Assembly (NCBI RefSeq): GCF_030013205.1 | Contig: NZ_CP122648.1 | DNA: 64,000 nucleotides | Strand: one strand, 5' to 3' | DNA from: Escherichia coli | GTDB taxonomy: Bacteria > Pseudomonadota > Gammaproteobacteria > Enterobacterales > Enterobacteriaceae | Position numbers and translations under genes: made by a program | Part shown: positions 172 to 1,727 of the stretch, in pieces | Numbering within the stretch: position 1 is the stretch's first letter | Layout of the letters: each line of letters opens with the position of its first letter | The notes under the pieces: generated by a model | What the model was told of the DNA's origin: nothing | Databases searched by the model: none | The model's input: only the letters and a program-made list of their open reading frames with translations

Positions 172-594
172 TTACCGGTTCTGGTGCAGAAGCTGCAGAT
201 GACGAAGAGTACGGACATCCTCCCGGGCCTGTTCGATACAGGGCAACAGTGCTACCGAATCCGTTTTATCCTCATCGTTGTCAAAGATAATTCCCGATTC
301 GCAGTCGATATTGTCCTGCAGCCACGCAATGAGGATATCCAGCGCTGTTTCAGTGGTTAATGGCATCACGCTCTGTATCACTGTATTGTCTTCCGGCAAC
401 TGATGAGGGCTGGCAGAAGTCGCCGGTGTTTCGGTAGCGTCACGTTCATTCACCACGCGGAGTGAATAACCGTTTTCAGCGACTTTGTTAATCAGTTCAG
501 CGAGCTCAATACCATCGACGTCAACGACAATGCGCCCCATGTTCAGCGCCTGCGCATTAATGCTGTCGGCTTCCAGCGTCAGGGCCAGTTTCAT
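172..594 (-). CDS. hypothetical protein directly downstream of the CbtA-like toxin gene (YeeW-like position)
   Basis: 140-aa ORF; its start overlaps the toxin stop by 4 nt (ATGA), suggesting co-transcription; no family recognised. Confidence 0.5.
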   Translation of the reverse strand: MKLALTLEADSINAQALNMGRIVVDVDGIELAELINKVAENGYSLRVVNERDATETPATSASPHQLPEDNTVIQSVMPLTTETALDILIAWLQDNIDCESGIIFDNDEDKTDSVALLPCIEQAREDVRTLRHLQLLHQNR

Positions 595-968
595 TGTTTC
601 GCCCCCGGATGTTTACCCAGGGTAATGTTATTTACCGTTCTGTAGTTGTCGCGTGTCATCAGGCCGGTTGCCCGGCGTGCCCGGAGGATATCAATACTGT
701 TTATTAACTGAGAACGGGTACAGGCGCTGAATCCCGGCTGGTCGGTACGTACCAGTGCGTATTTTTCAACGAGAAAGTTCACCGCATCGCACAGTGAAAT
801 GCCTGCCTCAATATGCTGCTCAATCACACGTTCATCAGCGAACGGTGTGTCATTCAGCGTAAGGCCGTAGTGCTGATCCAGCAGTCGGGTGAGCAGTGTC
901 TGCCAGATTTCAACCGGAGACGGGCGTGAACTGGCCGCCTGCCCGGGTAATACAGGTAATGTTTTCAT
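591..968 (-). CDS. CbtA/YeeV-family toxin (type IV toxin-antitoxin)
   Basis: Protein begins MKTLPVLPGQAASSRPSPVEIWQ, matching remembered YeeV/YkfI/YpjF toxins; six-frame ORF trimmed by 47 aa to this internal Met. Confidence 0.75.
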   Translation of the reverse strand: MKTLPVLPGQAASSRPSPVEIWQTLLTRLLDQHYGLTLNDTPFADERVIEQHIEAGISLCDAVNFLVEKYALVRTDQPGFSACTRSQLINSIDILRARRATGLMTRDNYRTVNNITLGKHPGAKQ

Positions 969-1057
969 ACTGAAGATTTTCCTGATATGCAGAGATGAAA
1001 AATGGAAAAGTGGCGTGGTGAAAGCACCAGGCCGGAGCAGAAGGTTATTCTGGAGAG

Positions 1058-1426
1058 TTACTTTTTCGTTTCGGGCGTCGGATAAACAGCCATATAAACG
1101 TAGCCACAACTGCCGAGGGTGTCGGCTTCGCAGGTCAGCCCTTTTGCATACAGCGTGACGGTATGCTGATGGCGGGGATTCAGTTCACCGCTGGTGAGCA
1201 TGAGTTCCAGTTGTTTCATCAGCAGCGGAAAGGCCTGGTCCAGGTGGTACGAATCCGCGTCGCTGAACCGCCCTCTGATACCGGCGCGGTCGGCAAGGTA
1301 ATGCAACCGGTTGCCTTCCTGTACCAGACGGGCACCAAAACAGGGCGTCACGGTGCAGGGCAGTCCCCACCAGGTGCGGTCGTTATTGTCGTCGGGAAGC
1401 GTTGTCCCGGGGAGTGTGTCTGACAC
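1058..1426 (-). CDS. CbeA/YeeU-family antitoxin
   Basis: 122-aa ORF just upstream of the toxin with ~89 bp spacing, as in K-12 yeeU-yeeV; sequence resembles YeeU-family antitoxins. Confidence 0.75.
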   Translation of the reverse strand: MSDTLPGTTLPDDNNDRTWWGLPCTVTPCFGARLVQEGNRLHYLADRAGIRGRFSDADSYHLDQAFPLLMKQLELMLTSGELNPRHQHTVTLYAKGLTCEADTLGSCGYVYMAVYPTPETKK

Positions 1427-1505
1427 GATAAAATCCTCACAGAAAATTGGTTAAGAATGGTCCGGTGGTGGCGATAATTCTGCTCTTCTGAATGCCCTTC
1501 CAGAC

Positions 1506-1727
1506 TCAGTTCAGGGTGACGCTCATCAGCCGGACATACGGACCAAAACTGTCCTTCCGGCGTTCTGCAAACACAGCCAGCACACCGGGAATATCCTGTA
1601 CTTCACGGCCGGTATATGTATCCGTGCTACCGTGCCAGCGGTATTTACCGGTACAGAACGGAAAAAGACGGGATGCAGGATGCTGACGGTGAATACGCAT
1701 GGCTTCACCACGGGTGATGATTTTCAT
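1506..1727 (-). CDS. YeeT/YfjY-like protein (DUF987)
   Basis: 73-aa ORF MKIITRGEAMRIHRQHP...LMSVTLN, same length and near-identical to remembered YeeT; located upstream of the antitoxin as in CP4-type elements. Confidence 0.7.
   Translation of the reverse strand: MKIITRGEAMRIHRQHPASRLFPFCTGKYRWHGSTDTYTGREVQDIPGVLAVFAERRKDSFGPYVRLMSVTLN

What the first reader, a model, noticed from the sequence alone, without database searches (positions are those of the whole stretch)
591..1727. CbtA/CbeA type IV toxin-antitoxin module with YeeT-like gene
This is the classic yeeT-yeeU-yeeV-type arrangement found in cryptic prophages; the toxin family targets cytoskeletal proteins (FtsZ/MreB). Here it lies at the sampled edge of a pheV island. 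A 140-aa downstream ORF is translationally coupled to the toxin.
Basis: partly seen in the sequence, partly recalled or inferred. Interest (0 to 1): 0.3.

Follow-up and report, generated by a model that had tools for sequence, protein, structure and literature searches.

The report
Ordinary CbtA/CbeA toxin-antitoxin module
This is an intact but entirely ordinary copy of the well-known E. coli yeeT-cbeA-cbtA (YeeT-YeeU-YeeV) toxin-antitoxin cassette, sitting at the far end of a small decayed island in the pheV tRNA gene, and the 140-aa ORF after it is a common in-frame fusion of two small proteins of unknown function.

Summary
On the minus strand lie yeeT (1727..1506, 73 aa), cbeA/yeeU (1426..1058, 122 aa, GTG start) and cbtA/yeeV (968..591, 125 aa). 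Pfam E-values are 3e-39, 5e-55 and 4e-59. The proteins align full-length to K-12 YeeT, CbeA and CbtA at 93%, 92% and 97% identity. The paralogues YkfI and YpjF are only 61-66% identical.

CbtA keeps R15 and F65, the residues needed to bind MreB and FtsZ. dN/dS is 0.05-0.3. The exact proteins occur on about 1000 or more public contigs each.

The module is the distal cassette of an ~11-kb island in pheV. A P4-type integrase sits next to the tRNA, and a 17-bp direct repeat lies about 870 bp beyond the window edge.

Two refinements:
- The 140-aa ORF (594..172) does overlap the cbtA stop by ATGA. It is an in-frame fusion of the DUF5983 N-domain to DUF957 and lacks the DUF5983 C-domain. NCBI's PGAP annotates it as a pseudogene plus a 65-aa gene. 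K-12 yeeW is a decayed copy of it. A 2026 preprint already describes these architectures.
- The usual upstream genes (radC-like yeeS, antirestriction) are deleted, with the junction near 1877-1880. No convincing promoter is left, so expression is unproven.

Verdict: already known, low interest.

The parts
1506..1727 (-). yeeT, a 73-aa DUF987 protein of unknown function. It has a strong Shine-Dalgarno sequence (AGGAGG) upstream.
   Evidence: ORF. Pfam PF06174 at E=2.7e-39, covering 1-65/65. 93.2% identical to K-12 YeeT over 73/73 aa. dN/dS is 0.07-0.31. PGAP names it yeeT.
1058..1426 (-). cbeA (yeeU), the 122-aa type IV antitoxin. It uses a GTG start, as in K-12.
   Evidence: Pfam PF06154 at E=5.4e-55. 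91.8% identical to K-12 CbeA over 122/122 aa. Matches solved YeeU structures 2H28 and 2INW at E~1e-78. dN/dS is 0.14-0.23.
591..968 (-). cbtA (yeeV), the 125-aa cytoskeleton-binding toxin. It is intact.
   Evidence: Pfam PF06755 at E=4.2e-59, covering 1-112/112. 96.8% identical to K-12 CbtA over 124/124 aa. R15 and F65 are present (sequence; their roles from PMC5624674). Against K-12 there are 23 synonymous and 4 non-synonymous differences, dN/dS 0.05.
172..594 (-). 140-aa ORF that overlaps the cbtA stop codon by ATGA. It consists of the DUF5983 N-terminal domain (aa 4-57, nt 585..424), a linker, and DUF957 (M76-R140, nt 369..172). The DUF5983 C-terminal domain (PF19419) is absent.
   Evidence: PF25638 at E=6.8e-28 on aa 4-57 only. 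PGAP splits it into a DUF5983 pseudogene (397..594) and a DUF957 CDS (172..369). Alignment to long-form loci shows ~330 bp missing. 140-aa homologues exist at 80-99% identity. The exact sequence is on 961 contigs. K-12 yeeW is a decayed copy.
118..144 (-). Terminator-like GC-rich hairpin followed by a T-run, 28 nt after the stop of the 140-aa ORF. It is the likely end of the transcription unit.
   Evidence: Consensus scan. The sequence is conserved in L005, L006 and K-12. This is a pattern match only.
1814..1880 (-). Remnant of the last ~66 bp of the radC-like yeeS gene. The deletion junction is at ~1877-1880, with ACC microhomology.
   Evidence: Homology to K-12 CP4-44 starts at window 1880, which corresponds to L002 2689 inside yeeS. 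The junction sequence joins L006 ~6217 to ~7185, so 968 bp are lost. PGAP marks 1814..1885 as a partial CDS.
1..87 (-). 5' end of the DUF4942 gene, the last gene of the island. It is cut by the window edge.
   Evidence: PGAP CDS at L001 11245..12087, which corresponds to window -755..87.
10249..10324 (-). tRNA-Phe (pheV), the island's integration site. A 17-nt stretch at 10255..10271 is repeated at the far end of the island, outside the window.
   Evidence: ARAGORN and Rfam. Flanking genes are yqgA, speC and nupG. The exact 17-mer is repeated at L001 11118..11134, 866-882 bp left of window base 1.
8789..10051 (-). Tyrosine recombinase (P4-type integrase) of the island, next to pheV.
   Evidence: 420-aa ORF. 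PGAP calls it 'tyrosine-type recombinase/integrase'.

Best explanation
The region encodes an intact orthologue of the E. coli K-12 CP4-44 cassette yeeT-cbeA-cbtA, followed by a yeeW-type ORF.

By homology (inferred, not shown here), CbtA is a small protein toxin with two targets. It binds FtsZ at the H6/H7 loop and MreB at the protofilament interface. It thereby blocks cell division and elongation, giving lemon-shaped cells. CbeA neutralises it without binding the toxin, by binding and bundling FtsZ and MreB filaments; this is the 'type IV' mode.

The cassette is the conserved distal module of a P4-integrase-type island of ~11 kb inserted in pheV. Upstream of yeeT, a 968-bp deletion has removed the radC-like and antirestriction genes that normally precede it.

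The ORF after cbtA is a widespread short allele in which the DUF5983 N-domain is fused in frame to DUF957. It is probably translated by coupling to cbtA through the ATGA overlap. Its function is unknown.
For: Shown here:
- Family membership at very high scores and full length.
- 97%, 92% and 93% identity to K-12 CbtA, CbeA and YeeT, with the same gene order and spacing.
- CbtA residues R15 and F65 are retained.
- CbeA matches the solved YeeU structures.
- Purifying selection on every ORF, dN/dS 0.05-0.31.
- Identical proteins on ~1000 or more contigs each.
- PGAP annotation of a 100% identical chromosome.
- pheV context and a 17-bp direct repeat bounding the island.
- Structure of the 140-aa ORF.

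From the literature:
- The toxin mechanism is described in PMC5624674.
- The antitoxin mode, the lack of autoregulation and the low native expression are described in PMC5371832.
Against: - Nothing contradicts the identification.
- Function of this particular copy is not shown.
- The upstream part of the presumed operon is deleted. Neither the standard scan nor a relaxed scan finds a good sigma-70 promoter on the minus strand upstream of yeeT or cbeA. The best candidate is CTGGCA-19 nt-GATAAT at 1890..1860.
- The K-12 homologues are expressed at low levels.
- The 'type IV' mechanism rests on a few studies of the K-12 proteins and is transferred here by homology only.
Confidence: 0.92

Rival explanations
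1. The cassette is a silent relic. Its ORFs are intact only because the 968-bp upstream deletion that removed its promoter-bearing region is recent. It does nothing in this strain.
For: - Deletion junction at 1877-1880 removes yeeS and the antirestriction remnant.
- No convincing promoter remains.
- The whole island is decayed: Hha fragment, frameshifted sulfatase-like gene, IS110-family insertions.
- In K-12 the upstream genes appear to belong to the same operon, and expression is low (PMC5371832).
- This exact 4-kb arrangement covers at least 80% of the query in only 11 of 5426 genomes.
Against: - All four ORFs are intact and have good ribosome-binding sites.
- The promoter of these cassettes has not been mapped, so its loss is not demonstrated.
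- An independently truncated locus (L005) also keeps the cassette intact.
- Read-through from upstream DNA is possible.
Confidence: 0.3
2. The functional unit is larger than a two-gene toxin-antitoxin pair. On this view yeeT and the translationally coupled DUF5983N-DUF957 protein are working parts of the system, for example a second neutraliser or a regulator of CbtA. The module would then serve island maintenance or establishment rather than classical toxin-antitoxin addiction.
For: - The 4-nt ATGA overlap of cbtA with the downstream ORF is kept in 4 of 4 loci examined, although the cbtA alleles differ by up to dS 0.47.
- The DUF5983 N-domain and DUF957 are under purifying selection, dN/dS 0.16-0.29.
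- DUF5983 is always found downstream of CbtA and was scored as a 'partner' in a survey of 19 E. coli sequence types (PMC10790755).
- The DUF957-like domain (ANF00264) is consistently next to cbtA and cbeA (preprint).
- CbeA-family proteins are reported to be translocated by the F plasmid type IV secretion system (PMC11288057).
Against: - No experiment links YeeT, DUF5983 or DUF957 to CbtA activity.
- CbeA alone neutralises CbtA in K-12, where yeeW is a decayed pseudogene.
- The structure prediction of the 140-aa ORF was uninformative, pLDDT 41.7.
- There were no PADLOC hits.
Confidence: 0.2
3. The 140-aa ORF is not a real protein. Only the 65-aa DUF957 product from the internal ATG at 369 is made, and the upstream part is a dead DUF5983 pseudogene. 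This is PGAP's reading.
For: - PGAP annotation.
- Full-length DUF5983 is 162 aa with a C-domain that is missing here.
- M76 aligns with the start codon of the free-standing DUF957 genes.
Against: - The frame stays open across 140 codons in alleles that have diverged down to 80% identity, and these clusters hold hundreds of members.
- The ORF's start codon is coupled to the cbtA stop.
- The Shine-Dalgarno sequence before M76 is poor compared with that in the long form (read from the sequence).
- Both products could be made.
Confidence: 0.35

Closest known systems
E. coli K-12 CP4-44 yeeT-cbeA(yeeU)-cbtA(yeeV)-yeeW
   Same: Same gene order, strand, spacing and ATGA overlap. Protein identities are 93%, 92% and 97% at full length. 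cbeA uses a GTG start in both.
   Different: - The locus here is in an island at pheV that has its own integrase.
- yeeR and yeeS upstream are deleted.
- The downstream ORF is intact at 140 aa. K-12 yeeW carries a nonsense codon and a 96-nt internal deletion.
K-12 paralogous modules YkfI/YafW (CP4-6) and YpjF/YfjZ (CP4-57)
   Same: Same Pfam families and the same DUF987-antitoxin-toxin order at the att-proximal end of P4-type islands.
   Different: They are only 61-66% (toxin) and 66-69% (antitoxin) identical. Their N- and C-termini are shorter and they have C15 instead of R15. The window's genes therefore belong to the CbtA/CbeA subgroup, not to these paralogues.
Long-form downstream genes: DUF5983 (162 aa), DUF957 (65 aa) and DUF4942, as in strain 410 at pheU (locus L005)
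   Same: Same position after cbtA, same ATGA coupling, and the same DUF957 and DUF4942 genes.
   Different: The window lacks ~330 bp. The missing stretch includes the DUF5983 C-domain PF19419 and the 11-nt spacer, so the N-domain and DUF957 are read as one ORF.
AntiFam ANF00264 / DUF5983 architectures described in bioRxiv 10.64898/2026.06.09.728211
   Same: [quoted passage not shown] It occurs fused to DUF5983, or beside a C-terminally incomplete DUF5983, or as a separate gene. The window matches the first two descriptions, depending on the annotator.
   Different: The preprint proposes a programmed frameshift. In the window no frameshift is needed, because the two parts are in the same frame. 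I could not scan the AntiFam model itself, so equating ANF00264 with DUF957 is an inference.

Membership tests
CbtA toxin family (Pfam PF06755), CbtA/YeeV subgroup | Matches the family profile above the curated cut-off over its whole length | tested here: met
   197.9 bits against a cut-off of 25, covering profile 1-112/112.
CbtA toxin family (Pfam PF06755), CbtA/YeeV subgroup | Full-length, untruncated orthologue of K-12 CbtA rather than of YkfI or YpjF | tested here: met
   96.8% identity over 124/124 aa, against 66% and 61% to the paralogues.
CbtA toxin family (Pfam PF06755), CbtA/YeeV subgroup | Residues shown to mediate FtsZ binding (F65) and MreB binding (R15) | tested here: met
   Both are present in the translated sequence. 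Their roles come from PMC5624674.
CbtA toxin family (Pfam PF06755), CbtA/YeeV subgroup | Toxic on expression: growth arrest and lemon-shaped cells | not testable with these tools
   Needs an expression experiment.
CbeA/YeeU antitoxin family (Pfam PF06154) | Profile match above the cut-off and similarity to the solved YeeU fold | tested here: met
   184.6 bits against a cut-off of 27. PDB 2H28 and 2INW match at E~1e-78 over residues 1-121. 91.8% identical to K-12 CbeA.
Type IV toxin-antitoxin system | Protein antitoxin encoded immediately upstream of the protein toxin | tested here: met
   cbeA at 1426..1058 and cbtA at 968..591, same strand, 89-nt gap.
Type IV toxin-antitoxin system | The antitoxin does not bind the toxin but protects its targets (bundling of FtsZ and MreB) | not testable with these tools
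   Known only for the K-12 proteins (PMC5371832 citing Masuda 2012). It is transferred here by 92-97% identity.
DUF987 / YeeT | Profile match and position directly upstream of the antitoxin | tested here: met
   133.4 bits, covering 1-65/65. 93% identical to K-12 YeeT.
DUF5983 family protein (full length) | N-terminal domain PF25638 | tested here: met
   96.5 bits on aa 4-57.
DUF5983 family protein (full length) | C-terminal domain PF19419 | tested here: not met
   No Pfam hit. The region is absent in the DNA alignment to L005 and L006. The ORF is therefore not a full DUF5983 member but an N-domain fused to DUF957.
tRNA-inserted P4-integrase-type island ('CP4-like cryptic prophage') | Integrase next to a tRNA gene, and a direct repeat of the tRNA 3' part at the far end | tested here: met
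   Integrase at 8789..10051 next to pheV at 10249..10324. The 17-nt repeat of 10255..10271 lies 866-882 bp left of the window.
tRNA-inserted P4-integrase-type island ('CP4-like cryptic prophage') | Phage structural or replication genes that would justify the word 'prophage' | tested here: not met
   None is annotated in the ~11-kb island. Its contents are an inovirus Gp2-family (YagK/YfjJ) protein, zinc-ribbon proteins, an Ail/Lom outer-membrane protein, IS elements and gene fragments.

The most novel reading that the evidence does not exclude
The 140-aa ORF may be a working third component of the CbtA system. It is coupled to cbtA by an ATGA overlap and joins the DUF5983 N-domain directly to DUF957 without any frameshift. 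It could, for example, modulate or neutralise the toxin. The recurrent covalent fusion would then indicate that the two small proteins normally act together.
Probability: 0.15. Interest if true: 0.4.

Novelty: already known. Interest (0 to 1): 0.08.

Why it matters
It matters little. CbtA/CbeA cassettes are present in most E. coli genomes, often in several copies: 5044 of 5426 complete genomes match this 4-kb stretch. Their toxin mechanism has been worked out in K-12.

The only mildly useful points are for annotation:
- The intact 140-aa ORF shows what K-12 yeeW decayed from.
- It shows that DUF5983-N and DUF957 can be joined in frame, which bears on a 2026 proposal of programmed frameshifting at this spot.
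- This copy has lost the genes, and possibly the promoter, that normally precede it.

Tried and rejected
- NCBIfam scan of seven proteins gave no hits. NCBI evidently names these proteins by other rules.
- PADLOC scan gave no defence-system hits.
- The PDB sequence search found nothing for CbtA, for YeeT or for the 140-aa ORF.
- AlphaFold2 on the 140-aa ORF with a 58-sequence alignment gave mean pLDDT 41.7 and pTM 0.28. The model is unusable, so no fold search was run.
- The standard and relaxed promoter scans gave no convincing minus-strand promoter upstream of yeeT or cbeA.
- Rfam at E<=0.1 over bases 1-12000 found only the tRNA.
- The repeat search over 1-11000 found nothing relevant to the module.
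- I considered that the toxin might be a YkfI or YpjF paralogue or a truncated copy. The alignment rejects this.
- I considered pheU instead of pheV. The flanking genes yqgA, speC and nupG reject this.
- I considered that the short 140-aa ORF is a one-off deletion in this strain. This is rejected because single-piece matches at 89-100% identity make up roughly a fifth of the evenly spread rows, and because 140-aa protein clusters exist down to 80% identity.

Full report
**What is in the sequence**

All the genes of the finding lie on the minus strand.
- yeeT is at 1727..1506 (73 aa).
- cbeA/yeeU is at 1426..1058 (122 aa, GTG start).
- cbtA/yeeV is at 968..591 (125 aa; the longer TTG-started ORF in the list is only the mechanical maximum).
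- A 140-aa ORF lies at 594..172. Its ATG overlaps the cbtA stop codon as ATGA (591..594 reads TCAT on the plus strand).

Pfam assigns the four products as follows:

| Product | Family | E-value | Coverage |
|---|---|---|---|
| YeeT | DUF987 | 2.7e-39 | 1-65/65 |
| CbeA | CbeA_antitoxin | 5.4e-55 | 2-100/101 |
| CbtA | CbtA_toxin | 4.2e-59 | whole model |
| 140-aa ORF | DUF5983_N | 6.8e-28 | residues 4-57 only |

I fetched the three K-12 loci, CP4-44, CP4-6 and CP4-57, and aligned the proteins.
- The toxin is 96.8% identical to K-12 CbtA over all 124 residues. It is 66% identical to YpjF and 61% to YkfI.
- The antitoxin is 91.8% identical to CbeA over 122/122 residues. It is 69% identical to YfjZ and 66% to YafW.
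- YeeT is 93.2% identical to K-12 YeeT.
- Nothing is truncated.
- The intergenic gaps are 79 and 89 nt, against 73 and 88 nt in CP4-44.
- CbtA keeps R15 and F65. Heller et al. showed these to be needed for the MreB and FtsZ interactions respectively (PMC5624674).
- CbeA matches the solved YeeU structures 2H28 and 2INW at E about 1e-78.
- No solved structure exists for CbtA, for YeeT or for the 140-aa ORF.

Pairwise Nei-Gojobori estimates against K-12 and two other loci give dN/dS of 0.05-0.31 for every ORF, including the two halves of the 140-aa ORF. cbtA against K-12 shows 23 synonymous and 4 non-synonymous differences. The exact protein sequences are each found on about 1000 or more public contigs.

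**Context**

The first 4 kb of the window is 100% identical to seven chromosomes of porcine E. coli, for example K_EC180 and several ETEC strains. 5044 of 5426 complete genomes carry some match to it.

The only tRNA in the window is tRNA-Phe at 10249..10324 on the minus strand. It is flanked by yqgA, speC and nupG, so it is pheV. A tyrosine recombinase (8789..10051) sits beside it.

Going from the tRNA towards base 1, PGAP annotates:
- a frameshifted sulfatase-like gene
- an Ail/Lom outer-membrane protein
- ISEc20
- a zinc-ribbon protein
- an inovirus Gp2-family (YagK/YfjJ) protein
- an Hha fragment
- yeeT, cbeA, cbtA, DUF5983 (pseudogene), DUF957 and DUF4942

A 17-nt stretch of the tRNA's 3' part (10255..10271) recurs exactly 866-882 bp to the left of window base 1, just past DUF4942 and before the kps capsule cluster. 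The island is therefore about 11 kb. The cassette is its distal end, and the window cuts its last gene.

No phage structural genes are present. 'Cryptic prophage' is only the traditional name for this kind of island.

**The 140-aa ORF**

PGAP does not call this ORF. It annotates a DUF5983 pseudogene 'missing C-terminus' (397..594) and a separate 65-aa DUF957 gene (172..369).

In long-form loci, a 162-aa DUF5983 gene (N- and C-domains) is followed after 11 nt by DUF957 in another frame (L005, L006). Aligned to these, the window lacks about 330 bp. The N-domain, a short linker (TETPATSASPHQLPEDNTVIQSV) and DUF957 are left in one frame.

This is not a private deletion.
- Single-piece matches covering the whole 471-bp query at 89-100% identity make up about 9 of 40 evenly spread rows in the E. 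coli search.
- 140-aa proteins form clusters from 99% down to 80% identity, some with hundreds of members.
- The exact sequence is on 961 contigs, including ETEC E24377A.

K-12 yeeW is a decayed copy of the same allele. It has a 12-nt loss at the start, a GAA-to-TAA stop after 'PHQLL' and a 96-nt deletion inside the DUF957 part, all in the same frame.

A June 2026 preprint (10.64898/2026.06.09.728211) describes these three architectures around an AntiFam entry (ANF00264) next to cbtA and cbeA. It suggests programmed frameshifting. In the window no frameshift is needed. That ANF00264 corresponds to DUF957 is my inference, because I could not scan AntiFam.

The current Pfam copy gave no hit on residues 76-140. 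A structure prediction of the ORF was of too low confidence to use, with pLDDT 41.7.

**Upstream of yeeT**

Homology to CP4-44 starts at window 1880, inside the last ~66 bp of yeeS. The junction sequence joins the 3' end of the radC-like gene directly to DNA that lies 968 bp further on in locus L006, with ACC microhomology. The radC-like gene and the antirestriction remnant are therefore gone. Locus L005 has a different, independent truncation at almost the same place.

Wen et al. noted that in K-12 the upstream genes appear to belong to the same operon. They also reported that the toxin-antitoxin genes are weakly expressed and not autoregulated (PMC5371832).

Neither the standard scan nor a relaxed one finds a good minus-strand promoter upstream of yeeT or cbeA. 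The best candidate is CTGGCA-19 nt-GATAAT at 1890..1860. A terminator-like hairpin follows the 140-aa ORF at 144..118, and a promoter-like site precedes DUF4942. Whether this copy is expressed is therefore open.

**How it most likely works**

The gene identities and their integrity are shown here. Everything about activity is inferred by homology.
- CbtA binds FtsZ and MreB independently and blocks division and elongation.
- CbeA counteracts it by binding and bundling the same filaments, without contacting the toxin.
- The functions of YeeT and the downstream ORF are unknown.
- The conserved ATGA coupling (4 of 4 loci) and purifying selection suggest that the downstream ORF is expressed with the toxin.

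**Rivals**

- The cassette is a silent relic after the upstream deletion.
- The unit is larger than a two-gene pair, with yeeT and the downstream ORF as working parts.
- Only the 65-aa DUF957 product is made.

None of these changes the identification.

**Verdict**

The module is a textbook, already known system in a common context. The small additions concern annotation of the downstream ORF and the loss of the upstream genes. Interest is low.

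Noticed in passing
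window 172-594 (-); K-12 locus L002 3941-4300: K-12 yeeW is a decayed copy of the window's intact 140-aa ORF. It has a 12-nt loss at the start, a GAA-to-TAA stop and a 96-nt in-frame deletion in the DUF957 part.
   Followed up: yes
window 591-1727 compared with L005 4874-6010: The cassette is mosaic. Against strain 410 (pheU island), yeeT and cbeA are nearly identical (dS 0.02-0.05) but cbtA is strongly diverged (dS 0.47). This implies recombination between cbeA and cbtA.
   Followed up: partly
L001 11118-11134 (866-882 bp left of window base 1) and window 10255-10271: An exact 17-nt direct repeat of the 3' part of pheV marks the far end of an ~11-kb island. Beyond it lie an IS110 fragment and the kps (group 2 capsule) cluster.
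   Followed up: yes
window 1877-1880: A deletion junction with ACC microhomology removes 968 bp (radC-like yeeS and the antirestriction remnant) relative to locus L006. Locus L005 has an independent truncation 10 bp away.
   Followed up: yes
proteins P0062, P0050 and P0101; not in the window: In some genomes the DUF957 reading frame is open for ~30-40 codons upstream, overlapping the 3' end of DUF5983. Proteins of 203-234 aa, such as P0050 and P0062 ('aec77'), read the C-domain region in that alternative frame. This is the pattern behind the AntiFam entry and the frameshift idea of the 2026 preprint.
   Followed up: partly
window 1971-2146 (+): A fragment of an Hha/YmoA-family gene (frameshifted, N-terminus missing) lies divergent to yeeT.
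   Followed up: no
window 3998-5194 (-): An intact IS110-family transposase (ISEc20) is inserted in the island. A second IS110-family fragment lies just outside the island's far end.
   Followed up: no
window 7089-8692 (+): A sulfatase-like hydrolase/transferase gene is split into two ORFs (191 and 329 aa) by a frameshift. PGAP marks it as a pseudogene.
   Followed up: no
window 6659-6741: Three tandem copies of a 33-bp unit (17-nt core TGAAGTACTGA..CGGG) lie inside the unannotated 165-aa ORF at 6551..7048 (-).
   Followed up: no
literature (PMC11288057, PMC10846083): CbeA, YagB and YfjZ were reported as proteins translocated through the F-plasmid type IV secretion system. The RadC-like neighbour YfjY was renamed LfgB, a protease. 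Its homologue is the gene deleted here.
   Followed up: no
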